IMG/VR virus record: IMGVR_UViG_3300045988_153285
Location: 69,906 to 133,905 of that record
Direction: 5' to 3' (one strand)
DNA length: 64,000 nt
DNA from: a virus
Part shown: piece after piece, positions 188 through 64,000 of the stretch
Position numbering within the stretch: position 1 is the first letter of the stretch
Layout of the letters: the number at the start of each line of letters is the position of its first letter
Made by a program: the position numbers and the translations under genes
Notes under the pieces: generated by a model
What the model saw: the letters and a program-made list of their open reading frames with translations, nothing else
The model's database searches: none
What the model was told of the DNA's origin: nothing

Positions 188-217
188 TTGCAAACTTAGT
201 GTTAGAGCCAATATAGA
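188..217 (+). promoter_or_regulatory. candidate sigma-A-type promoter in the CRISPR leader
   Basis: TTGCAA 188-193, 18-nt spacer, TATAGA 212-217, ending 5 nt before repeat 1; chance matches are likely in AT-rich DNA. Confidence 0.25.
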
Positions 218-222
218 TACGG

Positions 223-846
223 GTATTAATTATAATATGGTTATTTATAAACAACAACCTTTTAAAGTCATTATGAGTATTCCAATATGTATTAATTATA
301 ATATGGTTATTTATAAATGAATGTGGACTCCTATATAAGATTATCTTCGATACGTATTAATTATAATATGGTTATTTATAAATATATATAAATTTTATGT
401 GTTTCTTCAGTTTCTTCTGTATTAATTATAATATGGTTATTTATAAACTATAAATAGGTGTTTTTAACTCTAAATAGTGTCAAAGTATTAATTATAATAT
501 GGTTATTTATAAATAGATCTACTGCCATTTTAATATTCATACTATTCACTTGTATTAATTATAATATGGTTATTTATAAACAGTGGTAATTCTATTGTCA
601 ATATATCACCATAACTAGTTTTAATATTAATAATATATATTTATAAAGGTAGTAACAGTTTTAGGAACATTGACAGCTGGTGTGTTTAAATAGTAATATA
701 ATTATTTATAAATGGTGTAGTGGTATACGACATCGAAAATAAAACTGCGTTTAAATATTAATATAGTTATTTATAAACTAAAAGGTCTTCCTAGATACAT
801 TACATCTAAAGAAGTGTATTAATTATAATATAAATTATTTTATAAA
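223..846 (+). CRISPR. CRISPR array, 10 repeats and 9 spacers, type I-B-like repeat style
   Basis: Six identical 29-nt repeats GTATTAATTATAATATGGTTATTTATAAA start at 223, 289, 354, 419, 485 and 552. Four increasingly degenerate copies start at 618, 684, 749 and 816. Nine unique spacers of 36-38 nt. Degenerate end faces cas3, so leader is inferred at 125-222 and transcription on +. Confidence 0.93.
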
Positions 847-866
847 ATTGAAAGGAGTAAAATAAA

Positions 867-26962: not shown

Positions 26963-27250
26963 ATGTATACACAAAAAGAGTATTTTGAAGATATAGAAGA
27001 TATGAAGAGAATTGACACTACAAAACCATTCCATCCACCAGCTAGTGCTTTTAGGAAGGTAAATACTCAAATCCAGAATACATATTTTAATAAAGAAAAT
27101 ATAAATAAAAAGATGATGGTCATAGATGTCAACTGTTTTAGTTTCACAGGAGATTATGTTTGCCCTCATTATCATGATAGTTTTTCATCTGATAAAGAAT
27201 TAAGAGAAGAAGTTTGGGATAAACACTGCAGGAAGTGTTGGAATAAATAA
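26963..27250 (+). CDS. hypothetical protein (95 aa)
   Basis: ORF track; SD AGGGAG upstream. Confidence 0.7.
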   Translation: MYTQKEYFEDIEDMKRIDTTKPFHPPASAFRKVNTQIQNTYFNKENINKKMMVIDVNCFSFTGDYVCPHYHDSFSSDKELREEVWDKHCRKCWNK

Positions 27251-27290
27251 AATTGAGATTTTAAATAAATTAATAAAAATGGAGGGTAAA

Positions 27291-28049
27291 ATGAGCAATA
27301 AGATTAAACCAGTAGATTATAATGAAAAGATTTGTTTTAAATGTTTAAAGGAAAAGGATAATACGCATACATATACATTAGGATATAGAGGATATGGTAG
27401 TGGATTTGATAACTTTAATACAATTCTTCAATTATGCGACGATTGCAATCATGAAGAGTTAGGTATATGGTTTAATGAAGAACCAGAGTTAATTGATGGC
27501 TATTGTGAGGATTATAAATATGAAGATAATATTTTTGAATTTGTAAAATCATTGCCAATACAAGGAAGAGAGTTGTTTGAAAATCAATGTGCTAGGGGAG
27601 CTTGTTCATATCCAATGGAATCACAGGATTGGATAGATGTTGAATTAGGGGTTGCACCAGATAGTATATATAAAGAATATGGAATGTATTCGCCTTCAGA
27701 AATAAAAGCTTATGAAGAAAGATTCCCTACTTGTGAAAATGTATATCTCAAAACATACAAAGATGGATCTGGAGGTTGTAGATGTAATTATGGTGCTTAT
27801 GGCGAAAAAGATGGTAGTTGTGGTTCAAATATTTCAGATGAATGTTATACTTGTAGTCATTACAAAAAGAAGGGCTTCGACTATTCAATGAGAGAAGAAA
27901 AAGAACTATACATAGAGAAAGAAAAATTAAAAAGAATTGAGATGTATGAATGGACTTGTGAAGTTTGTGGAGAAATAAATCATACTTATATATATTCAGA
28001 TATGTTTGTTTGTCCTAAATGCCATCAATATTATAATGATTGTGAATAA
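27291..28049 (+). CDS. Cys-rich multi-Zn-ribbon protein
   Basis: Track ORF trimmed to ATG 27291 after GGAGGG; CFKC, CDDC, CEVCG, CPKC pairs. Confidence 0.7.
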   Translation: MSNKIKPVDYNEKICFKCLKEKDNTHTYTLGYRGYGSGFDNFNTILQLCDDCNHEELGIWFNEEPELIDGYCEDYKYEDNIFEFVKSLPIQGRELFENQCARGACSYPMESQDWIDVELGVAPDSIYKEYGMYSPSEIKAYEERFPTCENVYLKTYKDGSGGCRCNYGAYGEKDGSCGSNISDECYTCSHYKKKGFDYSMREEKELYIEKEKLKRIEMYEWTCEVCGEINHTYIYSDMFVCPKCHQYYNDCE

Positions 28050-28074
28050 AATTAATAAATAAGTAAGTGATTAT

Positions 28075-28214
28075 ATGAAACAAACCAGGCATATAACATT
28101 GCCAAAGAATAAAGATATAAAGTACTTTTACTATAGCTGCGAGACTTGTGGAGACAAATAGATAGTTATGAATATTATACATATGGCAAATGTGATGTTT
28201 GCAGGTACATATAA
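28075..28214 (+). pseudogene. Zn-ribbon gene interrupted by a one-base frame change
   Basis: Frame 1 gives MKQT...YYSCETCGDK then TAG at 28159. Starting at A28158 (the last base of the AAA Lys codon), the -1 frame continues IDSYEYYTYGKCDVCRYI* to 28214, supplying the second CxxC. Confidence 0.4.
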
Positions 28215-28228
28215 AGGAGAGATTTAGA

Positions 28229-28438
28229 ATGAAGAGAGTAATATTAGAAATGGATTTAGAAAATAAAGATGATATGACAAATGATATACTAATAGAATTA
28301 ATAGAAAGTGAATTACAATGGCATAGAGAAATAGATGGAATTAGTAATGTAAAAGTTTTGCATATGAATGACTATTTAGGTTATGTGAGCGATTTAGAAA
28401 ATAGATCAAGTCATTTCAACTATGGATATGAAGAATAA
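28229..28438 (+). CDS. hypothetical acidic protein (69 aa)
   Basis: Track ORF 28199..28438 trimmed to ATG 28229 after AAAGGAGAG. Confidence 0.65.
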   Translation: MKRVILEMDLENKDDMTNDILIELIESELQWHREIDGISNVKVLHMNDYLGYVSDLENRSSHFNYGYEE

Positions 28439-28447
28439 AAAAATATA

Positions 28448-28500
28448 ATATAAATTAATAAAATAAGTTGACAAGAATAAGAAAGATATGGTACTATAAT
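28448..28500 (+). promoter_or_regulatory. promoter with conserved upstream box (copy 5)
   Basis: ATATAAATTAATAAAAT 28448-28464, 3 nt, TTGACA 28468-28473. The -10 is ambiguous: TGgTACTAT at 18 nt or TATAAT 28495-28500 at 21 nt. Confidence 0.55.
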
Positions 28501-28516
28501 ATCAGGAGGTGGTTAG

Positions 28517-28747
28517 ATGATTGCAAATGAGTTATTTGAAATTATAGCAGAACATTTTGATTATAACAAGAAAGAAATAATAACAAATGTAAATGAACTA
28601 TTATTTAATATTCATGAAGATTCAAAGAAGTTTGCGTACACATTAGATAAGCTAAAAGAAGATTATGCATTAGAAGATGAACCGAGATGTCCTTTGTGTG
28701 GCGAAGACTTAACAGTAATAAATGAATGGGATGAAGACAGAGGATAG
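28517..28747 (+). CDS. Zn-ribbon-like protein ending at an in-frame TAG (76 aa; 101 aa if read through to 28822)
   Basis: ORF track; CPLCGE before the TAG; 24 further open sense codons after the TAG contain the matching CEDC. Confidence 0.6.
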   Translation: MIANELFEIIAEHFDYNKKEIITNVNELLFNIHEDSKKFAYTLDKLKEDYALEDEPRCPLCGEDLTVINEWDEDRG

Positions 28748-28849
28748 CATCAAGGATTTCCAGCTAATGAACATATGGTGTTAATAGGATGCGAGGATTG
28801 TTCATACATATTAAATGAATAAAAATTAATAAAATAAAGAGGTGAAGAA

Positions 28850-29485
28850 ATGCTAATGAAAAAGCTAATGCTGACTCTATTTTTTAGTAGTGGGATAATA
28901 ATTCCATTTGTAGAAGCAGCAAAAACTGATTCGGTAGCGAGGCAACTAATTGATGTCGATTTGTACGAATTTAAAAATTATAGAAATGAAATGAATGAAA
29001 AAGTACAAGCTTATGAAAAATATAAAATTGAAGAACAGAAGAGAATCGAAGCGGAACAAGAGAGATTAAGGCAAGAAGAGTTGGAAAGGCAAAGAATTGA
29101 GGAAGAAGAAAAGAATAAATTAATTAACAAGCTAGGATATGAACCGAGCAAGATAGTTAAAGTTAATTGCAAAGTAACATTTTATTATGCTGATAGCACA
29201 ACTCTTCAAGGTGGATATAATGATAAAAAGGGTATTCCTTTAAGTAGTCATAGTGAACCTATAGTTGCACTACCTAGTGATGTTACATATGGAAGTTACA
29301 TAGAATTTGATAAAGAAATTAGAGGGAATACACTTTTCAAAAACGTTGACAGTGGTGGAGCCATTAAGTGGTTAGATGATAACACCATTATAGTAGATGT
29401 ATTTGTTCCTGAAGCTGGTAGCTATAATGAATTAATTAATATGGTGAAGAATACAACTACTACAGCAACTATATATTATAAATAA
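28850..29485 (+). CDS. secreted 3D-domain (YuiC/MltA-like) cell-wall protein
   Basis: Signal peptide MLMKKLMLTLFFSSGIIIPFVEA, E/R/Q coiled coil, C-terminal VTFYYADSTTLQGG...VDSGGAIK...VDVF resembling the 3D domain. Confidence 0.55.
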   Translation: MLMKKLMLTLFFSSGIIIPFVEAAKTDSVARQLIDVDLYEFKNYRNEMNEKVQAYEKYKIEEQKRIEAEQERLRQEELERQRIEEEEKNKLINKLGYEPSKIVKVNCKVTFYYADSTTLQGGYNDKKGIPLSSHSEPIVALPSDVTYGSYIEFDKEIRGNTLFKNVDSGGAIKWLDDNTIIVDVFVPEAGSYNELINMVKNTTTTATIYYK

Positions 29486-29526
29486 AAGAACAATTTGAAA
29501 TTATTGCGAGTTAAAAGGAGGATAAA

Positions 29527-29796
29527 ATGGCACAAGCAATAAATAACCTTATAGGTAAAAAGTTTGGAAGGCTTACTGTTATAGGTTATACAGACAGAAG
29601 AGTGTCCAGAGCTGTAGTTTGGAAATGTAAATGTGAATGTGGAAATATAACTTATATGACACATAGGTGTTTAAAAAGTAGCGTAAGCTGTGGGTGTTAT
29701 CGGAATGAGAATTGTAGCAAAGTAGGATTAACCTATAATTCAGTAGGAAGAGAAGCCTATAAAAATAAATTAAATATGGGGAAGGTGAAATTATGA
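29527..29796 (+). CDS. hypothetical Cys-rich protein (89 aa)
   Basis: ORF track; GKKFGRLTVIGY...WKCKCECGN...SCGC; SD AAGGAGG. Confidence 0.7.
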   Translation: MAQAINNLIGKKFGRLTVIGYTDRRVSRAVVWKCKCECGNITYMTHRCLKSSVSCGCYRNENCSKVGLTYNSVGREAYKNKLNMGKVKL

Positions 29797-29966
29797 AGTT
29801 ATCTATAAATGCAAGAAAGCTATATCCAGAAGCAATATTTTATATTAATTGGGCTAAGAAAAGTAAAAATAGAAAAGTAAAAAGAAGATTAGTTATAAAA
29901 GCATTAAAAGAAATCAAGTGTCTTTCAAGCAAGGAGCTAAGAAGAAGAATATTGACAAAATATTAG
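29793..29966 (+). CDS. basic small protein (57 aa)
   Basis: ATG 29793 overlaps the preceding stop; K/R-rich; stop TAG 29964-29966. Confidence 0.45.
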   Translation: MKLSINARKLYPEAIFYINWAKKSKNRKVKRRLVIKALKEIKCLSSKELRRRILTKY

Positions 29967-30005
29967 TGAACAATTCAAATATATTGTGAACAGGAGGATT
30001 GAATA

Positions 30006-30224
30006 ATGGAAGATTTAATTAAAGAAGATCAGTTAAAAGAAGATAGAAGAAGAGTTAATAAATTTACCGCAGAAAGAATGGCTAGACAAAACAAGGATAA
30101 GTTACATGAGAAATTAGAAGATTTATTTATAATGTATCTTGATAGCGATGAGTGTAGATTCATGAGATTTTCACAATTAGAAGATTTAAGAAAGTTTTAT
30201 GTATACATAAAGGAAAATTTATAA
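30006..30224 (+). CDS. hypothetical protein (72 aa)
   Basis: ORF track; SD AGGAGG. Confidence 0.7.
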   Translation: MEDLIKEDQLKEDRRRVNKFTAERMARQNKDKLHEKLEDLFIMYLDSDECRFMRFSQLEDLRKFYVYIKENL

Positions 30225-30303
30225 AAATCGAATTTTATTTAAACTGAACGATGGGAATCAGCCAGTTAAACATATAAATTAAAATATTAAAGGAGTTGTT
30301 TAA

Positions 30304-31461
30304 ATGATTAAAGTAATTAAGAAAGATGGTACAAAGGTTCAATTTGACAGAAGAAAAATAGTTAATGCAGTGAACAAAAGTGCAAGTAGATGCGTAGTGA
30401 AATTAACTCAACAGGAGCTAGACAGCATATGCGATAAAGTAGAAGAATACTTAAAACAAAGTGGAACTACCGAAATAGATGTTGCAGATTTACATTACAT
30501 AGTTGAGGAGTCTTTAGAATTTATAAATAAAGAAGTAGCAAAAAGTTATAGAGAATATAGAAACTATAAGATAGATTTTGTAAGTATGCTCGATGAAGTT
30601 TACAATAAAGCTCAAAGTATAATGTACAGAGGCGATAAAGAGAATTCTAATACAGATAGCACATTAGTTAGTACAAAAAGATCGTTGGTTTATAATGAAT
30701 TAAATAAAGAGCTATATAATAAATTCTTCTTAACTACAGAAGAAAGACAAGCTTGTAGAGATGGATACATATACATACACGATAAATCAGCTAGAAGGGA
30801 TACGTTTAACTGTTGTCTTTTTGATACTAAAGCAGTAATGACCGGTGGATTTGAAATGGGTAACTTATGGTACAATGAACCAAAGACTATAGATACTGCT
30901 TGTGATGTTCTCGGAGATATAATAATGATGAGTGCTAGTATGCAATACGGGGGTTGGTCAACTAGAATAGATGATTTATTAGCCCCATATGTAGAGAAAA
31001 GCTATAAAATATATAAAGATGAATTATTGGGATATGGATTAAATTCTGAAAAAGCAGAAGAAATTGCATTAGAAAAAGCTAATAGAGACTTAGAACAAGG
31101 ATTACAAGGGTTAGAATATAAATTAAATTCTGTAGCAAGTTCTCGTGGAGACTATCCTTTCACTAGTTTCGCATTAGGTTTAGGTACTAGTAGATTTGAA
31201 AAGATGGTATCCATAGCAGCTTTAAATGTAAGAAGGAGAGGACAAGGAAAAGAAGGAAATAAAAAACCTGTCTTATTCCCTAAATTAATTTTCTTATATG
31301 ATGAAAACTTACATGGATCAGGAAAAGAATTAGAAGATGTTTTTGAGGTTGCAATATCTTGTAGCCAAAAATCAATGTACCCTGATTATCTTTCATTAAC
31401 TGGTGATTCTTATGTAGGTGAAATGTATAAAAAATATGGAGAAGTCGTATATCCTATGGGT
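30304..31461 (+). CDS. nrdD: anaerobic ribonucleoside-triphosphate reductase NrdD, exon 1
   Basis: ATP-cone-like N-terminus VIKKDGTKVQFDRRKI; ends ...VVYPMG. Joining to exon 2 (CRAFLSPW) restores the conserved PMGCR(S/A)FL motif. Confidence 0.85.
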
Positions 31462-31697
31462 TGAATAGCAGCTCATATAAAACCTCTTTAATTGCTGGAA
31501 ACCTAAATCAGAGATGACATGGCAATCAGCAGCGAAGTCCTTAACAGGAAACGTTCAGAGACTAGAGAAAGGGTAGCTAATACGAACTTATTAGTGAGAA
31601 CCGATTATCGTAGGAGTAAAATCCGAAATGGGAGGATATGTTGAAGCGTTAACATATAAGATATAGTCCGAGCCATTAGAAATAATGGATAAACTTG
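31462..31697 (+). ncRNA. group I self-splicing intron (no ORF), nrdD intron 1
   Basis: Near-consensus core elements: P AATTGCTGGAAACC 31490-31503, Q AATCAGCAGC 31524-31533, R GTTCAGAGACTAGA 31553-31566, S AAGATATAGTCC 31658-31669. 5' exon ends in U (31461), intron ends in G (31697). Confidence 0.85.
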
Positions 31698-32186
31698 TGT
31701 AGAGCATTTCTTAGCCCTTGGTTCGAAAGAGGGGGTATAGATCCAGCAGATGAAAATGATAAACCTATTTTTACATCAAGGTTTAATTGCGGAGCTATAA
31801 CACTACATTTACCGATGATTTACCAAAAGGCTAAAGTTGAGAATAAAGATTTTTATGAAGTATTAGATTATTACTTAGAAATGATAAGGCGAATACATAT
31901 AAGAACAAATGAGTATTTAGGAAATATGAAAGCATCTACAAATCCATTAGGTTTTATGGAAGGTGGATTCTTAGGTGGCAAATTAAAAGCAAATGACAAA
32001 ATTAAACCTCTATTAAAAGCAATGACCTATAGTTATGGAGTTACTGCATTAAACGAATTGCAATTGCTTCATAATAATAAATCATTAGTAGAAGATGGTC
32101 AATTCGCTTTAGAGGTTATGGAATATATAAATGAAAAAATAGAAGTATTTAAATATGAAGATGATATACTTTATGCAGTTTACGGT
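31698..32186 (+). CDS. nrdD: NrdD, exon 2
   Basis: Starts CRAFLSPWFERGG, ends ...ILYAVYG; the track 'M' at 31695 is a TTG inside the intron. Confidence 0.85.
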
Positions 32187-32506
32187 TAATGTAGCCGTGT
32201 TTAAACTACTAAACCCTACCAAGGGGTGTGTTACTTTAATAGTAATGCTAACGGTCAACTAAGCCAAAAGGCTAAGGTGGTAAGAGAGCCTAAGTCCTAT
32301 ATGGATATGGTAATACCGTGTCTTGTCAAAAACAAGATTTAGAGGACATCGAAAGGGTAAATATAAATTAAAGCTAGTTTATATTGAGTAACCGAGTAGA
32401 GTAGACTATGAGATAGGTACATAGTCGAAACTGGTAGCATTGTTAGCAGCAATGAAGATATGTTGCAGTCGGAAACGTAAGAATATAGAAATATATGTAC
32501 CGATTG
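32187..32506 (+). ncRNA. group I-like intron (no ORF), nrdD intron 2
   Basis: Interrupts the conserved YG|TPAES junction. Exon ends in U 32186, intron ends in G 32506. R/S-like GTAGAGTAGACTAT and ACATAGTCG. Bases 32210-32433 recur as an exact inverted copy at 63777-64000. Confidence 0.75.
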
Positions 32507-32977
32507 ACTCCTGCTGAAAGTTTATGTGGTCTTCAAGTAAAACAATTTAATGAAAAATATGGATATGTTGAGGGAATATCTAATAAAACATATACAAGTA
32601 ATTCATTTCATTGTTGGGTAGGAGAAGATATTAATCCTATCCAAAAGCAAGACTTAGAAAAGAGATTCTGGAATTTATTTAATGGTGGTAAAATACAATA
32701 TGTTAAATATCCAATAGATTATAATAAGGAAGCAATTAAAACATTAATAAGGAGAGCTATGAAGTTGGGCTTCTATGAAGGCGTAAATCTTGCACTAAGT
32801 TTTTGTGATGATTGTGGACATCAGGAATTAAATATGGATGTTTGCCCTAAGTGTGGAAGTAAGAATTTAACTAAGATAGACAGGATGAATGGCTATCTTT
32901 CATATTCAAGAGTAAAGGGCGATACAAGATTAAATGAAGCTAAAATGTCAGAAATAGCCGATCGTATTTCTATGTAA
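32507..32977 (+). CDS. nrdD: NrdD, exon 3
   Basis: TPAESLCG..., Zn site CDDCGH...CPKCGS, glycyl-radical motif DRMNGYLSY. Confidence 0.85.
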   Translation, partial: TPAESLCGLQVKQFNEKYGYVEGISNKTYTSNSFHCWVGEDINPIQKQDLEKRFWNLFNGGKIQYVKYPIDYNKEAIKTLIRRAMKLGFYEGVNLALSFCDDCGHQELNMDVCPKCGSKNLTKIDRMNGYLSYSRVKGDTRLNEAKMSEIADRISM

Positions 32978-33031
32978 TAAAAATTAAAATAATAGGAGAG
33001 TTTATCTCTCCTGTATAAGGAGGTAAAAAAT

Positions 33032-33484
33032 ATGAATTATCATAATATAACTAAAACTGACATGTTAAATGGTGACGGTCTTCGTGTGGTACTTTGGGTA
33101 TCAGGTTGTGAACATGCCTGCAAAGGGTGTCAAAATCCTCAAACATGGTCAGTCCATAGCGGTATACCATTCGATGAGTACGCAAAAAAAGAATTATTTG
33201 AAGAATTATCAAAAGACTATGTAAGTGGAATTACTTTTTCTGGCGGAGATCCACTTCATACTTCAAATAGAAATGAGGTATTAGAATTAATTAAAGAAAT
33301 AAAAGTTAAATTCCCCGATAAAACAATATGGGTATATACAGGATATCTTAAATCGAATGTAGATATGTTAGATGGCTTCGAGGATATAGATGTATTGGTT
33401 GATGGTAAATACATAGAAGAATTAAGCGTGCCTTCACCTCAATGGTGTGGGAGTTCTAATCAAGTAGTCCATCGATTAAAATAG
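33032..33484 (+). CDS. nrdG: anaerobic RNR activating enzyme (radical SAM)
   Basis: CEHACKGCQNP CxxxCxxC cluster motif, GITFSGGDP; directly downstream of nrdD. Confidence 0.9.
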   Translation: MNYHNITKTDMLNGDGLRVVLWVSGCEHACKGCQNPQTWSVHSGIPFDEYAKKELFEELSKDYVSGITFSGGDPLHTSNRNEVLELIKEIKVKFPDKTIWVYTGYLKSNVDMLDGFEDIDVLVDGKYIEELSVPSPQWCGSSNQVVHRLK

Positions 33485-33492
33485 GAGGAAGT

Positions 33493-34260
33493 ATGTTAAA
33501 TAGGTTAGGAGAAGAGAAAGTAAATAAATACGGCAGTAAAATGAAAATAATAGAATATAATTCTCCTTATAATATTACAGTGGAGTTTGAAGACGGGTAT
33601 GTAGAAAAAGGGAGATATGATGTTTTTAAGAGAGGTGCTATTTTAAATTGGAACGACAAATTTGTGCTAGGTGTTGGATATAAAGGAAAAGGGAAATATA
33701 AATTAAAAGAAAACGGAAAAGATACGTTTCTGTACACTGAATGGCACTCTATGTTGGCTAGATGTTATAATAAAAATCAACAACTTAAAAATAAAACATC
33801 ATCTTATAAGAATTGTATAGTCTGTGAAGAATGGTATAATTTTCAAAACTTTTGTGAGTGGTGGGAATCTAATTATTATGAAATCAAAGGAGAAAAAATG
33901 AGGTTGGATAAAGATGTATTGTATAAAAATAATAAGGTGTATTCACCAGATACATGTATCATAGTCCCTGAAAGGATAAATATGGTTTTGCAAACAGGAA
34001 GATCAACAAATAAAAGTGGATATCCTGGAGTAGATAAGAGAAGTGAGAATAGTTATAGAGCAAGATGTAATGTAACTGATAAAATCAATGGAAGTAAAGT
34101 TATAACTATAGCTTCATTTAATAATCCAGTAGAAGCGTTTCGTGCTTATAAAGAGTTTAAAGAAAATTATATTAAGCAAGTAGCAGATGAATATAAGGAC
34201 AGAATCCCTAAGAAATTATATGATGCTATGTACAGGTATGAAGTTGAAATAACAGATTAA
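33493..34260 (+). CDS. AP2-domain homing-endonuclease-like protein
   Basis: SGYPGVDKRSENSYRARCNV...ASFNNPVEAFRAYKEFK is an AP2 DNA-binding domain; free-standing gene wedged between nrdG and dut. Confidence 0.5.
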   Translation: MLNRLGEEKVNKYGSKMKIIEYNSPYNITVEFEDGYVEKGRYDVFKRGAILNWNDKFVLGVGYKGKGKYKLKENGKDTFLYTEWHSMLARCYNKNQQLKNKTSSYKNCIVCEEWYNFQNFCEWWESNYYEIKGEKMRLDKDVLYKNNKVYSPDTCIIVPERINMVLQTGRSTNKSGYPGVDKRSENSYRARCNVTDKINGSKVITIASFNNPVEAFRAYKEFKENYIKQVADEYKDRIPKKLYDAMYRYEVEITD

Positions 34261-34307
34261 TACATATAACAATAAAAATTAATATATAAAAGGAGAGAAA
34301 GTAGATT

Positions 34308-34748
34308 ATGAAATTAAGAATCAAATATTTACAAGATGCAACAAGAATGAATAAAATAACAAAAGGAAATTGGATTGATGTATATGCATACCAAGACACA
34401 TTTGTTCCAGAAGGTGAAAGAGCGATGATTAATTTAGGATTTGCGTTAGAATTACCTAAAGGATGGGAAGGGCATTTAGCACCAAGAAGTTCAACATTTA
34501 AAACTTGGGGAGTGATTCAAACCAATAGTGTAGGAGTTGTCGATGATACATATATAGGTGATAATGATATTTGGCATATGCCTGTATATTGCCTACAAGC
34601 AAAACACGATAATGGAACATGGATAAGAACTGGAGATAAAATAGGGCAGTTTAGAATAATGGAAGTAATGCCAGAAATAGAATTTGAGGAAGTCGAATCA
34701 TTCGGTAATCAAGATCGTGGTGGTTTTGGGACTACAGGGGTGAAATAA
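34308..34748 (+). CDS. dut: dUTP diphosphatase
   Basis: dUTPase motifs DVYA, PRSS, GVVDDTYIGDND, QDRGGFGTTG. Confidence 0.85.
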   Translation: MKLRIKYLQDATRMNKITKGNWIDVYAYQDTFVPEGERAMINLGFALELPKGWEGHLAPRSSTFKTWGVIQTNSVGVVDDTYIGDNDIWHMPVYCLQAKHDNGTWIRTGDKIGQFRIMEVMPEIEFEEVESFGNQDRGGFGTTGVK

Positions 34749-34749
34749 C

Positions 34750-34953
34750 ATGAAGACATTAATAATTTTTATAATAACATTGATATTTTCCATGTTCATG
34801 GCAGTAGATAAAGATGGAGTAAAAATAAATAATAAAACAATTAAAACTTATCCTAAAAGAGTAGCATATTGCTTCATAGCATTAATCATATTTGTATCAA
34901 TAATATCATGGGTTACCATACTACCAATCTTAGGACTACTATCATTACTATAA
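34750..34953 (+). CDS. small membrane protein (67 aa)
   Basis: ORF track; two hydrophobic helices. Confidence 0.65.
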   Translation: MKTLIIFIITLIFSMFMAVDKDGVKINNKTIKTYPKRVAYCFIALIIFVSIISWVTILPILGLLSLL

Positions 34954-34960
34954 TACATAA

Positions 34961-34989
34961 ACACTTAGGTTAATCCTAGGTGTTTTTTC
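34961..34989 (+). terminator. rho-independent terminator
   Basis: ACACTTAGG-TTAAT-CCTAGGTGT stem followed by TTTTTT. Confidence 0.75.
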
Positions 34990-35006
34990 TTTTCTAAAAA
35001 ATTAAA

Positions 35007-35055
35007 ATATAAATTAACAAAATACGTTGACAAAATAAAAATACCAATGTATAAT
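35007..35055 (+). promoter_or_regulatory. promoter with conserved upstream box (copy 6)
   Basis: ATATAAATTAACAAAAT 35007-35023, 3 nt, TTGACA 35027-35032, 17 nt ending in TG, TATAAT 35050-35055. Confidence 0.75.
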
Positions 35056-35101
35056 AATATACATAAGGTACAAGTTGCCAAATAAATTAAGAGGTGATTG
35101 A

Positions 35102-36391
35102 ATGGAAAAAGTATTAGAGATTATTAATCGATTAAGATTAACTACAAAGACAAATGAGAAATTAGCAATATTAAAGCACCATAGTGATAATGAATTGCTA
35201 AAAGAAACTCTATATTATACATATAGTGATAAGAATTATGGATTTAGCGAAAAGCTACTAAGGCAAGCTATGGAATCATATGAAACTAAATTTATTCTAA
35301 CTTGGAAAAACTACAAAGATATGTTAGATGAATTATCCTCTAGCAACATCAATGATAAACTAAGAGAACAAACATATGAATTTCTTTCTTTATATGATGA
35401 AGAAGAACGTGATTTATATATTAATATAATATCAAATGATTTAAAGATAGGAATAAATGTAAAATCAATAAATAAAGCTATTCCTGGATTAATACCTACA
35501 TTCGGTGTTCAGCTAGCAGAATCTTTCTTTAAACAAAAAGAAGGTTTCTTGGATGGAAAAGAATTTATTCTGTCTACTAAACTTGATGGAAATAGACTTG
35601 TAGCTATTAAAAACAAAGATAAGGTTGAATTTAAAACTAGACAAGGTAAAGTAATGGAGGGATTAATTGAATTAGAAGAAGAATTTAAAGATATCCCAAA
35701 TGGAATTGTTTTAGATGGTGAATTAATTCTTAAAAACGATAAAAACTTACCTTCAGATGAATTGTTTAGAGAAACTATGAAAGTTGCTAGGAAGAAAGGC
35801 GAGAAGAGAAATTTAGAGTTCCATGTGTTCGATTGTATTGAATTAGATGGATTTAATAAAGGTTATGATCCTACTCCTTGCATAGAAAGAAAACAAAAAG
35901 TTTCTAATTTAATTAAAAATAAAAAGTGGTTAATTGAAGTTCCTGCTTTATATATAGGAAAAGATGCTAATATGATAACTAAATTATTAGACGAAGCTAT
36001 TTCGAATAATCAGGAAGGTATAATGATTAATATAGCAAACTCAGGATATAGCTGCAAGAGAACTAAAGATATTTTGAAAGTTAAAGCATTTTTGGATGGA
36101 GATATGAGATGTGTTGATGTCATAGAAGGAACAGGAAAGAACACAAATAAATTAGGGGCTATAACAGTTGAGTTCGAATACGAAGGTAAATTATATAGAT
36201 GCGATTGTGGAAGCGGATTTTCTGATTTTGAACGTAAATTGTATTGGGACAATCCTGAGTTAATATTAAATAAGATAGTTACCATAGGTTATTTTGAGAT
36301 AAGCAAGAATAAAAATGGTTCCATTGGCTTACGTTTTCCTACATGGAAGTCAATAATTAGAGATGATAAAGACGACATAAGTATGAACTAG
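35102..36391 (+). CDS. ATP-dependent DNA ligase
   Basis: Motif I STKLDGNR (KxDG), III VLDGELI, IIIa FHVFD, IV EGIMIN, V LKVK. Confidence 0.85.
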   Translation: MEKVLEIINRLRLTTKTNEKLAILKHHSDNELLKETLYYTYSDKNYGFSEKLLRQAMESYETKFILTWKNYKDMLDELSSSNINDKLREQTYEFLSLYDEEERDLYINIISNDLKIGINVKSINKAIPGLIPTFGVQLAESFFKQKEGFLDGKEFILSTKLDGNRLVAIKNKDKVEFKTRQGKVMEGLIELEEEFKDIPNGIVLDGELILKNDKNLPSDELFRETMKVARKKGEKRNLEFHVFDCIELDGFNKGYDPTPCIERKQKVSNLIKNKKWLIEVPALYIGKDANMITKLLDEAISNNQEGIMINIANSGYSCKRTKDILKVKAFLDGDMRCVDVIEGTGKNTNKLGAITVEFEYEGKLYRCDCGSGFSDFERKLYWDNPELILNKIVTIGYFEISKNKNGSIGLRFPTWKSIIRDDKDDISMN

Positions 36392-56725: not shown

Positions 56726-56855
56726 AACTCTCTCTCCTTCCTACCATGCTTGAACCTCCCACGACTAAAGTCATAGGATTCTTGGGTAATCTCAACCATT
56801 GTCAAGAAATTTACCAAGCTATCCTCCTAGTTCCTAAGATTTTCTTATTTATTAT

Positions 56856-58010
56856 TTATAATTCTAATTTTCTTAACCCTTCATTTAATATATTTATACT
56901 TGCATTATAATCTCTATCTATTTTTAACCCACATTTTTCACATATATAAGTTCTACATCCTAAATCCTTTGTTTGATTGCTTTGTGATCCACAATTGCTA
57001 CATAATTGACTTGATGGGTAGAATCTATCTATTCTTGATATTAACTTATAATTCCATCTAGCCTTATATTCTAATTCTCTATTAAATTCAAAGAAACTTG
57101 CATCTGATATTGATTTTGCTAACTTATGATTTTTAATCATACCACTAGAATTTAAATCTTCTAAACAGATAATATCATAATCTTTGATTAATTTAGTTGA
57201 TAATTTTTGTAGAAAATCTATTCTACAATTAGTTATCTTTTTATGCCATTTATTAACTTTTAACCTTTGTTTATTTCTATTATTAGAACCTTTCTTTCTT
57301 TTACTCAGTTTTCTTTGAGATTTAACCAATTGTTGCTCGTACTTTATATAAAATTTAGGATTATTTATAATTTCATTATCTGACGTAGTAGCAAACTCTT
57401 TTATCCCTAAATCTATTCCTATTACTGCCCCAGTTTGTTCTAATGGTTTAGACACTACACCTACACAACACAAACTTATATAATACTTATTATCTGTATC
57501 TCTTGATAATGTAGCAGACACAATTCTCCCTTCATATTGTCTTGAATACGCAATTTTAATTTGTTTTACTTTGGGTAATTTAATTTTGCAATTTTGTTTT
57601 TTAAATTTGCCAGTAGAAGTATATTTAATTTCTTTTTCTAATACCGCAATATTACCATTAGTATAATTTATTTTAATACTTTGATAATTATTTTTATAAG
57701 ATTTAAACTTAGGAAAACCACATTCTTTTTTAAAGAATTTTAAGAATGTCTGATACTGATATTTAATGGTATTTTGTAGAACAGATTTTTCACACTCTTT
57801 AAGCCAAGGATTTTTATTTTTAAGAAGTGTTAATAATTTCGACATTTTATTATAATTTAAAACACTTTTATGATGGTTTAATCTATGTTTATTTATATTT
57901 AAGAAATAGTTCCAAACGTATCTTTTGGCTTTAAACATATTTTCTATCTGTTCTATTTGATTATTTTTAGGATATATTCTATATTTAAATCCTTTTTCTA
58001 TTGTTTCCAT
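56856..58010 (-). CDS. tnpB: TnpB (IS605 OrfB) RuvC-like RNA-guided nuclease
   Basis: METIEKGFKYRIYP start; RuvC D (IGIDLGI), E (ICLEDLN), D (DRDYNASINI); Zn finger CSNCGS...CEKCG. ATG 58010 after GAGGTG (track start GTG 58019). Confidence 0.85.
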   Translation of the reverse strand: METIEKGFKYRIYPKNNQIEQIENMFKAKRYVWNYFLNINKHRLNHHKSVLNYNKMSKLLTLLKNKNPWLKECEKSVLQNTIKYQYQTFLKFFKKECGFPKFKSYKNNYQSIKINYTNGNIAVLEKEIKYTSTGKFKKQNCKIKLPKVKQIKIAYSRQYEGRIVSATLSRDTDNKYYISLCCVGVVSKPLEQTGAVIGIDLGIKEFATTSDNEIINNPKFYIKYEQQLVKSQRKLSKRKKGSNNRNKQRLKVNKWHKKITNCRIDFLQKLSTKLIKDYDIICLEDLNSSGMIKNHKLAKSISDASFFEFNRELEYKARWNYKLISRIDRFYPSSQLCSNCGSQSNQTKDLGCRTYICEKCGLKIDRDYNASINILNEGLRKLEL

Positions 58011-58027
58011 TATTAACACCTCGCTTT

Positions 58028-58432
58028 CTATTTTTCTTTTTGGGTTTTAATATAGTTTATTATTTGTTCCTCGGTATTTTCTGATACTGTAGCTATAAAA
58101 TAACTGGGATTCCACAAATGCCCACCCCATAATTTCTTTTTTAAAATCACACCATATTCCTTCATTAACAATCTAGCACTAACACCCTTTAATGCTTTTA
58201 TCATATCTGGAATGTAATGCTGTGGTGTACACTCTATTAATAAATGTATGTGATCTAAATCACTATTAATTTCGACTATTTTAAAATTATTATCTTTAGC
58301 TATTTTATTTAATATTTCTATTAATTTGTTTTCTATTATATCATCTAAAACTCTACGTCTGTATTTTACACACCAAACTATATGGTATTGTATTGAGTAA
58401 ACATATCCTCGTCCATGATATACATTTGCCAT
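58028..58432 (-). CDS. tnpA: IS200-type Y1 (HUH) transposase TnpA
   Basis: YHIVWCVKYRRRVL, HUH motif DHIHLLIE, catalytic Tyr in INYIKTQ. ATG 58432 after GAGGTGA (track start 58474). Confidence 0.85.
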   Translation of the reverse strand: MANVYHGRGYVYSIQYHIVWCVKYRRRVLDDIIENKLIEILNKIAKDNNFKIVEINSDLDHIHLLIECTPQHYIPDMIKALKGVSARLLMKEYGVILKKKLWGGHLWNPSYFIATVSENTEEQIINYIKTQKEK

Positions 58433-58627
58433 TATATTCACCTCATATTTATATAATAACATATGTATTAGCATTATTCAAGTAATTATCTAAGTTTATT
58501 TAACTTTTTAAATTAACATATGTAATGCTATATAATATGTCCTAACTCATGACTGAAGTCACGAGTGTGCGGACACAATCATATCAATATACTTTTATAT
58601 ACTCATATATAGTAGGAATTTCACCTA

Positions 58628-63094: not shown

Positions 63095-63474
63095 CGTATT
63101 TTTATTTTCTTATAATCGCTATACTATAAGAGATTGAAAAATTCAATCCTCACACTTTCATGTGAGATTAGACTATTTCTTCACCTTCAGCATTACCTGT
63201 TAAGGGCAATCCATTTCCACTACCAATCACTTGTAGTGTACTCCCATTTCAGGGATAGTCGTTTGACCTTCCTATTTCTAGGCTTGGCGACCAAATTTCC
63301 ATTGTATAAGCACTTAGGATTTAACCATATGCCATCTCTACACTTGTTATGATTTCTCACCATCATAAAGGTTTCTGATTCTATCCTTTATTGTGGTAGT
63401 AGAGCTTTAGGATTTACTGGTTTTAAGATTGTGTCCTATGCACATTTCTGTACACACGGAGCGAATATTACTCT
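63095..63474 (-). ncRNA. group I-like intron in the tape measure gene (boundaries approximate)
   Basis: About 380 nt with no credible ORF between two in-frame TMP segments. Minus-strand R/S-like elements GGTCAAACGACTATCC (63252-63267) and GAAGAAATAGTC (63171-63182). Proposed 5' exon ends in U (63475) and intron ends in G (63095). Confidence 0.5.
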
Positions 63475-63705
63475 ATTTTTACCTGCTATTTCCTCGGCTA
63501 ACATTGCTTGTTCCATACTATTTAAGTCGTCCCAGACTTCACCAATGTCTTTTAAAATGTCATATGTTGACCTAAACTCATTATTGGCATTAGTTAAAGA
63601 TACACCTGTAATTTCTTTTATAAATTCTCCCATTGAAGCACTAAGCTCTTCGCCTTCCTCGGATACACCACGTAATCTCATGGAAATTGTTTTCAATCCA
63701 TTAGC
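63475..63705 (-). CDS. tape measure protein, internal exon
   Basis: ...ANGLKTISMRLRGVSEEGEELSASMGEFIKEITGVSL...MLAEEIAGKN. The track ORF 63436..63777 extends into introns at both ends. Confidence 0.55.
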
Positions 63706-64000
63706 CCAATATAGATGAATATTTCTATTCTGGTTACTATATTGCAACATATCTTGAAGTTTGCTAAACTTCCCCACAGTTTCGACTATGTACCTATCTC
63801 ATAGTCTACTCTACTCGGTTACTCAATATAAACTAGCTTTAATTTATATTTACCCTTTCGATGTCCTCTAAATCTTGTTTTTGACAAGACACGGTATTAC
63901 CATATCCATATAGGACTTAGGCTCTCTTACCACCTTAGCCTTTTGGCTTAGTTGACCGTTAGCATTACTATTAAAGTAACACACCCCTTGGTAGGGTTTA
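63706..64000 (-). ncRNA. group I-like intron in the tape measure gene, truncated by the window edge
   Basis: 63777-64000 is the exact reverse complement of nrdD intron 2 bases 32210-32433. The 3' end is inferred by alignment with the nrdD copy (shared AAGATATGTTGCA and AGAATA..GAAATAT, terminal ...ATTG). Confidence 0.65.

What the first reader, a model, noticed from the sequence alone, without database searches (positions are those of the whole stretch)
63706..64000. Identical 224-nt intron core shared by nrdD and the tape measure gene, with a compensatory change in the next hairpin
In my base-by-base comparison, bases 63777-64000 are the exact reverse complement of 32210-32433 (nrdD intron 2), with 224 of 224 matching. 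The identity runs off the window edge.

Immediately after the identical block, each copy has a hairpin of unrelated sequence. The nrdD copy has CATTG-TTAGCAG-CAATG at 32438-32454. The TMP copy, on the minus strand, has GAAGTTT-AGC-AAACTTC at 63772-63756. Both then share AAGATATGTTGCA and an AGAATA..GAAATAT segment before ending in ...ATTG.

Perfect identity of the catalytic core, with structure-preserving divergence in a peripheral helix and different flanking exons, indicates recent intron transposition between two unrelated genes of the same phage without an intron-encoded endonuclease. It also means the track ORF start at 63777 lies inside an intron. The two inverted copies, 31 kb apart, are a potential substrate for genome inversion.
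Basis: seen in the sequence. Interest (0 to 1): 0.7.

Follow-up and report, generated by a model that had tools for sequence, protein, structure and literature searches.

The report
Group I intron copied into tail gene
A small self-splicing RNA intron that normally lives in a phage's anaerobic ribonucleotide reductase gene has recently also landed in its tail tape-measure gene, at a site sharing only the 6-7 bases the intron pairs with; this is good natural evidence that such introns can jump without their own endonuclease.

Summary
Window 63777-64000 is the exact reverse complement of 32210-32433 (224/224).

- **What it is.** Both copies are about 320-nt, ORF-less group I introns with P7.1 and P7.2. 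Rfam does not detect this family, and GenBank phages have no match to its 3' half.
- **Structure.** About 60 distinct relatives from metagenomes give strong covariation for P3, P7.1, P7.2, P8 and P9.
- **Insertion sites.** Every member sits after TACGGT and carries the guide sequence GCCGT. All are in nrdD (two sites) except the tape-measure (TMP) copy, which occurs only in this phage lineage.
- **TMP copy.** At least 12 independent assemblies read through it. Splicing restores a TMP collinear with uninterrupted homologues. An intron-less allele with the empty site AATACGGT|A exists at 99% protein identity.
- **Donor.** The TMP copy is 99% identical to the nrdD intron of a sister phage, not to the resident nrdD copy.
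- **Differences between the two window copies.** All lie in the P1 loop, P3, P8 and P9, and all preserve pairing. The identical block is bounded by the two P3 strands, so the core was exchanged.
- **Caveat.** In other assemblies the two cores differ at 6-7 positions, and contigs of this phage tend to end at this repeat. The perfect identity may therefore come from the assembly.

The mechanism I favour, guide-sequence-directed reverse splicing, is inferred and not shown.

The parts
63707..64000 (-). TMP-resident copy of the intron. The 3' 294 nt of about 320 are in the window. The missing 5' 26 nt (AAATAGGATTGCCGTTGTAAAACCCA) lie beyond the window edge.
   Evidence: the full copy was read in L002 9052-9370 and in L261-L270. 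The terminal G is at 63707.
63481..63706 (-). TMP exon that follows the intron (..V|ANGLKTISMRLRGVSEEG..EEIAG).
   Evidence: the spliced peptide aligns in one piece to uninterrupted tape-measure genes.
32187..32506 (+). nrdD intron 2 (320 nt), the resident 'A-type' copy at nrdD site B (..AVYG|TPAES..).
   Evidence: the 5' exon ends ACGGT, the intron ends ATTG, and the fold z-score is -3.5.
32210..32433 (+). 224-nt block identical to rc(63777-64000). It spans P2, P2.1, P4-P6, the P7 5' strand, P7.1 and P7.2, and is bounded by the variable base pairs of P3.
63777..64000 (-). The same 224-nt block in the TMP copy.
32182..32198 (+). P1. The 5' exon ACGGT (32182-32186) pairs with the guide sequence GCCGT (32194-32198), with U.G at the splice site.
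   Evidence: the same exon and guide-sequence pair is present in the 44 distinct family members whose 5' end lies on the stored DNA.
32206..32211 (+). P3 5' strand (CTACTA). It pairs with 32432-32437 (TGGTAG).
   Evidence: 17 distinct strand pairs, 98% paired against 63% after shuffling.
32432..32437 (+). P3 3' strand of the nrdD copy.
63773..63778 (-). P3 3' strand of the TMP copy (TGTGGG). It pairs with CCCATA, which lies just outside the window.
32438..32454 (+). P8 hairpin of the nrdD copy.
   Evidence: 24 distinct variants, 99% paired.
63756..63772 (-). P8 hairpin of the TMP copy. The sequence is unrelated but the shape is the same.
32344..32348 (+). P7 5' strand (GGACA). It pairs with TGTTGC at 32461-32466. 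J8/7 (AAGATA) is at 32455-32460.
   Evidence: sister introns have GACTA/TAGTC at the same places, which amounts to two compensatory pairs.
32467..32506 (+). P9 domain and terminal G of the nrdD copy.
   Evidence: 24 distinct outer-stem variants, 95% paired.
63707..63743 (-). P9 domain and terminal G of the TMP copy.

Best explanation
Both repeats are copies of one ORF-less, self-splicing group I intron of about 320 nt.

Shown:
- The 5' exon ACGGU pairs with the internal guide GCCGU, with U.G at the cut. The intron ends in G just after a P9 helix.
- P3, P7.1, P7.2, P8 and P9 are supported by counted covariation across about 60 relatives. P2, P2.1 and P5 show compensatory changes read by eye. 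P4 has a single compensatory variant. P6 is only weakly supported.
- Removing the intron restores NrdD (..AVYG|TPAES..) and the tape-measure protein (..DSNTV|ANGLKTISMRLRG..).

Inferred from comparison:
- The family's home is nrdD, at two Tyr-Gly sites that both read TACGGT.
- In this phage lineage one variant, still found at 99% identity in the alternative nrdD allele of a sister phage, was inserted ectopically into the tape-measure gene after AATACGGT. The only resemblance between donor and recipient sites is the 6-7 nt that pair with the guide sequence.
- The insertion is young, because an otherwise 99% identical TMP allele lacks it.
- Afterwards the 224-nt core between the two P3 strands was exchanged between the TMP copy and the resident nrdD copy. 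The ends stayed locus-specific because the two P3 strands must match each other.

Inferred mechanism: integration was guided by the intron RNA's own guide sequence. That means reverse splicing into a TACGGU site of the TMP transcript, followed by reverse transcription and recombination. I put this last step at about 45%. It was not tested here.
For: - **Identity and coordinates:**
- **Group I kinship:**
  - The P4-P6 segment matches intron regions of Staphylococcus, Bacillus, Enterococcus and Brochothrix phages.
  - Examples inspected include introns in nrdE and in large terminase.
  - The homologous phiAGATE terminase intron is recognised by RF00028.
- **Covariation**, percentage paired against shuffled controls:
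  - P3: 98% against 63%.
  - P7.2: 99% against 72%.
  - P8: 99% against 54%.
  - P9: 95% against 57%.
  - None of 1000 shuffles reached the observed value for any of these.
- **P5:** compensatory change AGCC/GGCT to AACT/AGTT.
- **P7:** GGACA/TGTTGC against GACTA/TAGTC in sister introns.
- **Insertion sites:** the 44 distinct members whose 5' end is on the stored DNA have a 5' exon ending TACGGT and the guide sequence GCCGT. Across all members only three site types occur: nrdD site A, nrdD site B and TMP.
- **Rarity of the target:** TACGGT occurs only 4 times in the 64-kb window.
- **The TMP intron is real:** it is contiguous in at least 12 independent assemblies.
- **Splicing is plausible:** the spliced peptide is collinear with uninterrupted TMPs.
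- **Intron-less allele:** P0001/L281 has the empty site AATACGGT|AGCTAAC.
- **Donor:** L001 is 99% identical to the TMP copy over 311 nt. Its flanks are 96-99% identical to the window, but its NrdD is only 27% identical.
- **No ORF:** the longest stop-free stretch in the nrdD copy is 55 codons.
- **Second example in the family:** L157 has two virtually identical ORF-less copies at nrdD sites A and B.
- **Fold:** z-score -3.5.
Against: - RF00028 gives no match to either copy even at E <= 10.
- The helix order is unusual. Two covarying hairpins lie between the P3 5' strand and J3/4-P4.
- The P7 strands are invariant within the family, so P7 rests on comparison with sister introns only.
- No obvious P10 pairing exists for the TMP 3' exon.
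- No splicing data are available.
- No reverse transcriptase was looked for or found.
- About half of the family encode HNH endonucleases that might act in trans.
- The shared TACGGT would also be seen if insertions arose by any route and only splicing-competent ones survived.
- The perfect core identity is seen only in this window. In other assemblies the nrdD core differs from the usual TMP core at 6-7 positions.
Confidence: 0.7

Rival explanations
1. The perfect 224/224 identity is produced by the assembly. The two true copies would differ at a few positions, as in other strains, but were represented by one collapsed graph segment. The contig stopped at the far end of that segment.
For: - The identity block ends exactly at window position 64000.
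- An independent 67.8-kb scaffold (L016/L274) has its nrdD intron about 31.8 kb from its end, the same distance as in the window.
- An IMG/VR contig ends 9 nt into the TMP intron when approached from the other side.
- In 10 other assemblies the nrdD copy has P5 = AACT/AGTT and a P6 loop with AAGC, whereas 8 of 12 TMP copies have AGCC/GGCT and AAAAA.
- The two sites occur in all four combinations among TMP copies. Independent bubble resolution would also produce this.
Against: - The contig reads through the nrdD copy with both unique flanks.
- The TMP copy, with its own P3, P8 and P9 and its exon junction, is reproduced in at least 12 assemblies made by different pipelines. Its existence and its identity of at least 97% to the nrdD core are not in doubt.
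- None of the 10 other nrdD copies is mosaic.
Confidence: 0.3
2. The move into TMP was DNA-based. An HNH homing endonuclease cut near the TMP site by relaxed specificity, and the break was repaired from the nrdD intron by illegitimate or microhomology-mediated recombination. The endonuclease could come from a related intron in a co-infecting phage or from the free-standing HNH gene next to nrdG in sister genomes.
For: - About half of the family carry HNH_3 ORFs in P6.
- Sister genomes have a 352-aa HNH_3 ORF just downstream of nrdG.
- The review PMC3984707 lists relaxed endonuclease specificity as a route to ectopic sites.
Against: - Donor and recipient sites share only ATACGGT. That gives no homology for repair and little for a long endonuclease recognition site.
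- The insertion is exact to the nucleotide at both intron ends.
- The 80 nt of 5' exon next to the site are identical between intron-plus and intron-less alleles, and there is no symmetrical conversion tract.
Confidence: 0.2
3. The two copies are old, independent residents of nrdD and TMP, and their cores are kept identical by purifying selection on the ribozyme.
For: Ribozyme cores are conserved. Tourasse and Kolsto (PMC2504315) describe TMP introns with conserved cores and diverged P1, P2, P8 and P9.
Against: - Other family members differ visibly throughout the same core in the alignment.
- An intron-less TMP allele exists at 99% protein identity.
- TMPs at 64-68% identity lack this intron while sharing the neighbouring one.
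- The TMP copy is 99% identical to an nrdD intron elsewhere.
Confidence: 0.03
4. The element is moved as DNA by the IS200/IS605 transposase encoded in the same phage, as an IStron-like or miniature element. This would explain insertion just 3' of a fixed short sequence.
For: - A TnpA(Y1)+TnpB element lies at about 56.8-58.6 kb.
- From my own knowledge, not checked here: IS200/IS605 elements insert 3' of a specific short target without duplication, and IStrons combine a group I intron with such an IS.
Against: - The intron ends and the IS ends share no similarity; the best matches are 8-12 nt at chance level.
- The fixed sequence is exactly the complement of the intron's own guide sequence.
- Family members occur in many phages, but I did not check those for the IS.
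Confidence: 0.03

Closest known systems
Subgroup IA group I introns of Firmicute phages (SPbeta nrdE/nrdF, SPO1-like and Staphylococcus phage introns; Rfam RF00028)
   Same: - P1 has a U.G pair at the splice site, and the intron ends in G.
- The P4-P6 segment is detectably homologous (GGTAAGAGAGCCTAAGTCC..GGATATGGTAATACCGTG).
- P7.1 and P7.2 lie between P7 and the P3 3' strand.
- The J8/7 sequence is AAGATA.
- Relatives carry HNH endonuclease ORFs.
- The host genes are ribonucleotide reductase genes.
   Different: - RF00028 does not match it.
- The P3 5' strand follows P1 directly, and the two P2-type hairpins sit between it and J3/4-P4.
- P7 is GGACA/TGTTGC, with an extra G in the 3' strand, instead of GACTA/TAGTC.
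- The 3' half has no blastn match in 50,697 GenBank phage records.
Group I introns in prophage tape-measure genes of the Bacillus cereus group (TMP-IVS1/2/3 and term-IVS1; Tourasse and Kolsto 2008, PMC2504315)
   Same: - These are introns inside TMP genes.
- Homologous introns occur at different sites or genes, with a conserved core and diverged P1, P2, P8 and P9.
- Most lack an endonuclease gene.
   Different: - There the related introns are 65-80% identical overall (cores of the closest pair 90-92%), and their P1 has changed to fit each site.
- Here the copies are 97-100% identical in the core, and the TMP copy is 99% identical to an nrdD intron.
- Here the guide sequence is unchanged and the target hexamer is the same.
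Proposed spread of group I introns by reverse splicing (rDNA introns; Roman and Woodson; Bhattacharya et al. 2005; reviewed in PMC3984707)
   Same: Related introns occur at different sites whose 5' flank is complementary to the guide sequence. No endonuclease is needed.
   Different: - The known circumstantial cases lie within rRNA genes.
- Here the sites are in two unrelated protein-coding genes of a phage.
- An identifiable donor variant and an empty-site allele are both available.
- Nothing here shows the RNA route directly.
T4 nrdD (sunY) intron
   Same: It is a group I intron in a phage anaerobic ribonucleotide reductase gene.
   Different: No sequence match was detected. The T4 nrdD intron is mobile and T4-type introns encode their own homing endonucleases (abstract of PMC1865063). 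I did not compare the insertion site.

Membership tests
Group I intron | The 5' exon ends in U, which forms a U.G pair within P1 with an internal guide sequence. | tested here: met
   ACGGU|..GCCGU in both copies and in the 44 distinct relatives whose 5' end lies on the stored DNA.
Group I intron | The last intron nucleotide is G. | tested here: met
   ..ATTG| at 32506 and 63707. Every relative ends in G after the P9 stem.
Group I intron | Core helices P3-P8 are present, including the P3/P7 pseudoknot topology. | tested here: met
   P3, P7.1, P7.2 and P8 show many counted compensatory changes, and P5 shows one read from the alignment. P4 has one compensatory variant, and P6 is weak (72% paired against 49% shuffled). 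The P3 3' strand lies between P7.2 and P8, as expected.
Group I intron | A P7 helix carries the guanosine-binding G-C pair, flanked by J6/7 and J8/7 consensus sequences. | tested here: inconclusive
   Both strands (GGACA / TGTTGC) are invariant in the family. My search pattern fixed the 3' strand. Comparison with sister introns (GACTA/TAGTC) gives two compensatory pairs. The pairing needs a bulged G in the 3' strand.
Group I intron | A match to Rfam RF00028 at the gathering score. | tested here: not met
   No match even at E <= 10. The two neighbouring canonical introns score 81.6 and 38.3 bits.
Group I intron | Precise removal restores a reading frame collinear with intron-less homologues. 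| tested here: met
   For TMP: including an empty-site allele. For nrdD: YG|TPAES, with NRDD Pfam domains on all exons.
Group I intron | Guanosine-dependent self-splicing. | not testable with these tools
   This needs in vitro transcription and splicing, or RNA data.
Subgroup IA | Extra helices P7.1 and P7.2 lie between P7 and the P3 3' strand. | tested here: met
   Two covarying helices are found at 32355-32393 and 32404-32426.
Subgroup IA | P2 and P2.1 lie between P1 and P3. | tested here: not met
   The two covarying hairpins (32214-32226 and 32230-32246) lie after the P3 5' strand (32206-32211) and before J3/4-P4.
Endonuclease-driven homing intron | The intron encodes a homing endonuclease. 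| tested here: not met
   No ORF: at most 55 stop-free codons, measured on the nrdD copy, with the TMP copy being the same about-320-nt element. Relatives carry HNH_3 ORFs.
Spread by reverse splicing | The new site shares with the old one only the 4-6 nt that pair with the guide sequence. | tested here: met
   TTTACGGT, TATACGGT and AATACGGT. The 3' exons are unrelated.
Spread by reverse splicing | There is no co-conversion of flanking exon sequence. | tested here: inconclusive
   The donor is in a non-homologous gene. Intron-plus and intron-less TMP alleles differ at 12 positions between +1 and +124 downstream and at none within 50-80 nt upstream. This cannot be separated from ordinary allelic variation.
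Spread by reverse splicing | A reverse transcriptase and a cDNA recombination step exist. | not tested
   No search for a reverse transcriptase in phage or host was made.
Group II intron | A 5' GUGYG, a domain V, and a size above 600 nt. | tested here: not met
   The copies start UAAUGU and AAAUAG and are 320 nt long. Rfam gives no group II match.
IStron | A group I intron is joined to an IS200/IS605-type element or its ends. | tested here: not met
   No ORF, and no similarity to the ends of the phage's own IS.

The most novel reading that the evidence does not exclude
This is a family of small group I introns that actively colonises any expressed TACGGU site using only its guide sequence. The route would be reverse splicing, reverse transcription and recombination. 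The nrdD-to-TMP jump, and the duplicated copies at nrdD sites A and B in L157, would be fresh events. The family also represents a structural subclass that current models miss, with the P2 hairpins moved into the P3-P4 junction and an altered guanosine-binding helix.
Probability: 0.35. Interest if true: 0.8.

Novelty: new variant of a known kind. Interest (0 to 1): 0.6.

Why it matters
RNA-mediated transposition of group I introns to new sites has long been proposed. According to the 2014 review read here (PMC3984707), it has no direct experimental support, and its best circumstantial cases lie inside rRNA genes.

This phage lineage offers what is needed to test it:
- a donor variant at 99% identity;
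- a recipient site in an unrelated essential gene that shares only the bases complementary to the guide sequence;
- an intron-less allele with the empty site;
- sister introns with and without an endonuclease.

There are practical consequences too. Gene callers split both nrdD and the tape-measure gene into fragments here. The repeat also breaks metagenomic assemblies of this common gut phage.

Tried and rejected
- **Rfam at gathering threshold on the whole window:** nothing found, and even the canonical nrdD intron 1 was missed. It appeared only in the permissive regional scans.
- **megablast of both regions against GenBank phages:** no relatives.
- **Search for the source genome in IMG/VR with a TMP exon pattern:** no hit.
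- **A 16-mer pattern around the P7 3' strand:** mostly chance hits.
- **The one scan of GTDB genomes:** a single hit in an Oscillospiraceae MAG. By my rough estimate a hit like this is about as likely by chance as not, and its flanks look unrelated, so I dropped it.
- **My first P7 guess (GTAAC/GTTGC):** rejected. TAAC(C/T) covaries with (G/A)G(G/A)TA as the outer stem of P7.1.
- **P10 pairing for the TMP 3' exon:** I looked by eye and found none convincing.
- **Fetching both intron copies from one independent long contig:** two extra look-ups returned lists of contigs that did not overlap. Exchange within one genome therefore could not be separated from an assembly effect.
- **Similarity between intron ends and the IS200/IS605 ends:** none.
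- **Literature searches for hairpins inserted in J3/4 ('P3.1'):** one failed on syntax and the other returned nothing relevant. I cannot say whether this helix order has been described before.
- **MAFFT alignment A1:** too poorly aligned in the variable helices for column-based pair counting. I counted pairs from anchored extraction instead.
Full report
**1. Observation**

The repeat finder reports one long inverted pair, 32210-32467 against 63743-64000 (258 nt, 95%). Reading both strands shows that 32210-32433 equals the reverse complement of 63777-64000 at 224 of 224 positions.

The shared AAGATATGTTGCA and the ..ATTG ends are also there.

The ORF 63436..63777 starts inside the repeat.

**2. 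Gene context**

nrdD is in three pieces in the window (ORFs at 30304, 31695 and 32495). The same pieces in sister contigs all carry the NRDD Pfam domain.
- Intron 1 (31462-31697) is a canonical group I intron (RF00028, 81.6 bits). It sits at PMG|CR.
- Intron 2 (32187-32506) is the repeat. Joining ..TACGGT to ACTCCT.. gives ..AVYG|TPAES...

On the minus strand the tape-measure gene is also split.
- A weaker canonical group I intron lies at about 63149-63480 (38.3 bits, E = 5e-8).
- The repeat ends at 63707, followed by the exon ANGLKTISMRLRG...

RF00028 does not match either copy of the repeat, even at E <= 10.

**3. The missing part of the TMP copy**

The exact 1209-aa and 81-aa TMP exon products are encoded on many public contigs.

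At least 12 independent assemblies read straight through a 319-320-nt insert (L002 9052-9370, L005, L261-L270). It lies between ..GAAGTAATGAGAGACTCGAATACGGT and GGCTAATGGATTG...

The spliced peptide ..MRDSNTV|ANGLKTISMRLRG.. aligns as one piece over 93-100% of its length to uninterrupted tape-measure genes. These are from Brevibacillus, Bacillus, Thomasclavelia, Enterocloster and Clostridioides phages.

The base before TAAACCC is A in the TMP copy and C in the nrdD copy. The identical block is therefore exactly 224 nt and ends at the window edge.

**4. It is a family**

Two conserved motifs and a gapped pattern retrieved about 60 distinct relatives from IMG/VR and metagenome contigs.

- **Guide sequence.** The 44 distinct members whose 5' end lies on the stored DNA have a 5' exon ending TACGGT, followed 7-15 nt later by GCCGT. 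This gives P1 with a U.G pair at the cut.
- **Sites.** Only three kinds of site occur:
  - nrdD site A (..QQYG|GFT..);
  - nrdD site B (..YG|TPAE..);
  - the TMP site, found only in the window's lineage.
- **Endonuclease ORFs.** About half of the members carry a 160-200-aa HNH_3 ORF, one also with NUMOD4, inserted after P4-P6. The window copies are the ORF-less form; the longest stop-free stretch in the nrdD copy is 55 codons.
- **A parallel case.** In L157 two virtually identical ORF-less copies sit at sites A and B of one nrdD gene.
- **Rarity of the target.** TACGGT occurs only four times in the 64-kb window, which is 28% G+C.

**5. Structure**

I extracted helix strands using conserved anchors and counted pairs over distinct variants.

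| Helix | Distinct variants | Paired | After shuffling partners |
|---|---|---|---|
| P3 | 17 | 98% | 63% |
| P7.2 | 21 | 99% | 72% |
| P8 | 24 | 99% | 54% |
| P9 outer stem | 24 | 95% | 57% |

None of 1000 shuffles reached the observed value for these four.

- The outer stem of P7.1 has 7 variants and keeps a conserved purine.A mismatch.
- P5 shows AGCC/GGCT against AACT/AGTT between strains.
- P4 has only one compensatory variant. P6 is weak (72% paired against 49% shuffled).
- P2 and P2.1 also vary while keeping their pairing, as read by eye from the listed sequences.
- The P4-P6 segment is detectably homologous to intron regions of Staphylococcus, Bacillus, Enterococcus and Brochothrix phages. 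The examples inspected include introns in nrdE and in large terminase. One of them, in phiAGATE, is recognised by RF00028.
- The P7 strands are invariant (GGACA and TGTTGC). Sister introns that share the flanks have GACTA and TAGTC instead, which amounts to two compensatory pairs.
- The nrdD copy folds better than shuffles (z = -3.5).

Two features depart from the usual subgroup IA layout.
- The P3 5' strand follows P1 directly, and the two P2-type hairpins lie between it and J3/4-P4.
- P7 needs a bulged G in its 3' strand.

I could not establish whether this layout has been described before.

**6. How the two window copies differ**

All differences lie in the P1 loop, in both strands of P3 (CTACTA/TGGTAG against CCCATA/TGTGGG), in P8 and in P9. 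All of them keep the pairing.

The identical block runs from the last two bases of the P3 5' strand to the first two bases of the P3 3' strand. These are therefore two diverged variants, A and B, whose middle has been exchanged. A recombinant that swapped only one end would break P3.

**7. Where the TMP copy came from**

An IMG/VR contig (L001) carries a B-type intron at nrdD site B. It is 99% identical to the TMP copy over 311 nt, including P3, P8 and P9.

Its flanks are 96-99% identical to the window, but its NrdD is only 27% identical. L001 is thus a sister phage with a replaced nrdD cassette.

The only marked difference from the TMP copy is in the 10-nt P1 loop, at 4 of 10 positions.

The donor and recipient sites share only ATACGGT.

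**8. The insertion is recent**

A protein search with the spliced peptide found P0001, which is 99% identical and reads across the junction. Its contig shows the empty site ..AATACGGT|AGCTAACGGG...

TMPs at 64-68% identity (P0003, P0005) read across the site without the intron, yet still end in the neighbouring canonical intron. For P0003 the DNA shows TATGGTC at the site.

Intron-plus and intron-less alleles are identical for 50-80 nt upstream of the site. They differ at 12 positions between +1 and +124 downstream. I cannot interpret this pattern with confidence.

**9. How firm is the perfect identity?**

The core has two polymorphic spots: the P5 stem and the P6 loop.

| Copy | Assemblies | P5 / P6 state |
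|---|---|---|
| nrdD, other assemblies | 10 of 10 | AACT/AGTT + AAGC |
| TMP | 8 of 12 | AGCC/GGCT + AAAAA |
| TMP | remaining 4 | the other three combinations |
| nrdD, this window | 1 | AGCC/GGCT + AAAAA (the TMP-typical state) |

This fits real gene conversion between the copies. It equally fits graph collapse during assembly.

Contigs of this phage tend to stop at this repeat.
- The window ends exactly at the block boundary.
- A 67.8-kb scaffold has the same nrdD-to-end distance as the window.
- An IMG/VR contig ends 9 nt into the TMP intron from the other side.

I could not obtain both copies from one independent contig.

**10. Mechanism**

- **Shown:** the anatomy of a group I intron, exact insertion after TACGGU at three sites, no ORF, a young insertion, and a donor variant.
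- **Inferred:** guide-sequence-directed integration by reverse splicing.

The review read here states that this route needs only 4-6 complementary bases plus reverse transcription and recombination. It also states that the route has no direct experimental support, and it names relaxed endonuclease specificity as the alternative.

The alternatives are listed with the rival explanations. An IS200/IS605 route was checked and found unsupported.

**11. Comparison with what is known**

Group I introns in prophage tape-measure genes are known. So are homologous introns at different sites, or in different genes, with conserved cores and diverged P1, P2, P8 and P9 (PMC2504315).

What is new here:
- the degree of identity;
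- the unchanged guide sequence and target hexamer across unrelated genes;
- an identifiable donor and an empty site;
- a family layout that Rfam misses and whose 3' half has no blastn match in 50,697 GenBank phage records.

**12. Inversion**

Crossing over between the inverted cores would join nrdD 5' exons to TMP 3' exons. It would also pair an A-type P3 strand with a B-type one. No such hybrid occurs among the roughly 60 sequences. I regard inversion as a lethal side reaction, not a feature.

**Verdict**

The donor is the B-type nrdD variant of a sister phage, not the resident copy. The perfect core identity is a separate and less certain matter.

Noticed in passing
window 31462-31697 (+): nrdD intron 1 is a canonical group I intron (RF00028, 81.6 bits) at the PMG|CR site. 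The whole-window Rfam scan at gathering threshold missed it. It appeared only in the regional scan.
   Followed up: partly
window about 63149-63480 (-): There is a second group I intron in the tape-measure gene (RF00028, 38.3 bits, E = 5e-8), after ..EEIAG. More distant TMPs (P0003, P0005) share it, so it is older than the repeat copy. A 35-nt stretch of it is 100% identical to Streptococcus phage Str-PAP-1 and Lactococcus phage 38502. Its 3' boundary was not fixed.
   Followed up: partly
L261, L264, L267, L268, L281, L282, L285 (upstream of the window edge): Some strains have a third TMP intron (canonical group I features, about 500 nt) after ..LNEAG, so it is polymorphic. Likewise, L015 and L019 have an extra intron in nrdD exon 1.
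   Followed up: no
window about 56780-58600 (-): An IS200/IS605-type element (Y1 TnpA 58028-58474, TnpB 56856-58019) with hairpin ends lies in the intergenic space between tail genes. It is present in the sister contigs L002-L004 and L006.
   Followed up: partly
L001 against window 27244-35839: The sister phage has 96-99% identical flanks, but its nrdD is only 27% identical at the protein level. A whole-cassette replacement has occurred at the same position.
   Followed up: partly
window 33493-34260 (+): The slot downstream of nrdG is variable. Here it holds a 255-aa ORF with a weak AP2-domain match. Many sister contigs have a 352-aa ORF there instead, mostly with a weak HNH_3 match. This is probably a free-standing endonuclease-type slot.
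   Followed up: partly
L157 5948-6272 and 7305-7628 (the same contig as L226): Two virtually identical ORF-less copies of the same intron family lie in one nrdD gene, at sites A and B. Both follow TACGGT.
   Followed up: partly
window 2814, 6930, 14129, 20470, 28436, 34987, 36486 (+): A 50-74-nt promoter-like repeat recurs seven times (ATATAAATTAATAAAATA..TTGACA..17 nt..TATAAT). It is probably a phage promoter class with an upstream element.
   Followed up: no
window 210-860 (+): Seven or more copies of GTATTAATTATAATATGGTTATTTATAAA occur at about 66-nt spacing. The array resembles iterons or a promoter array.
   Followed up: no
L200 and L259, 19 nt downstream of nrdD site B: In some phages another intron-like insert begins only 19 nt into the exon that follows the family intron (..GAGAGTTTGT|TGTAATAGGC..).
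   Followed up: no
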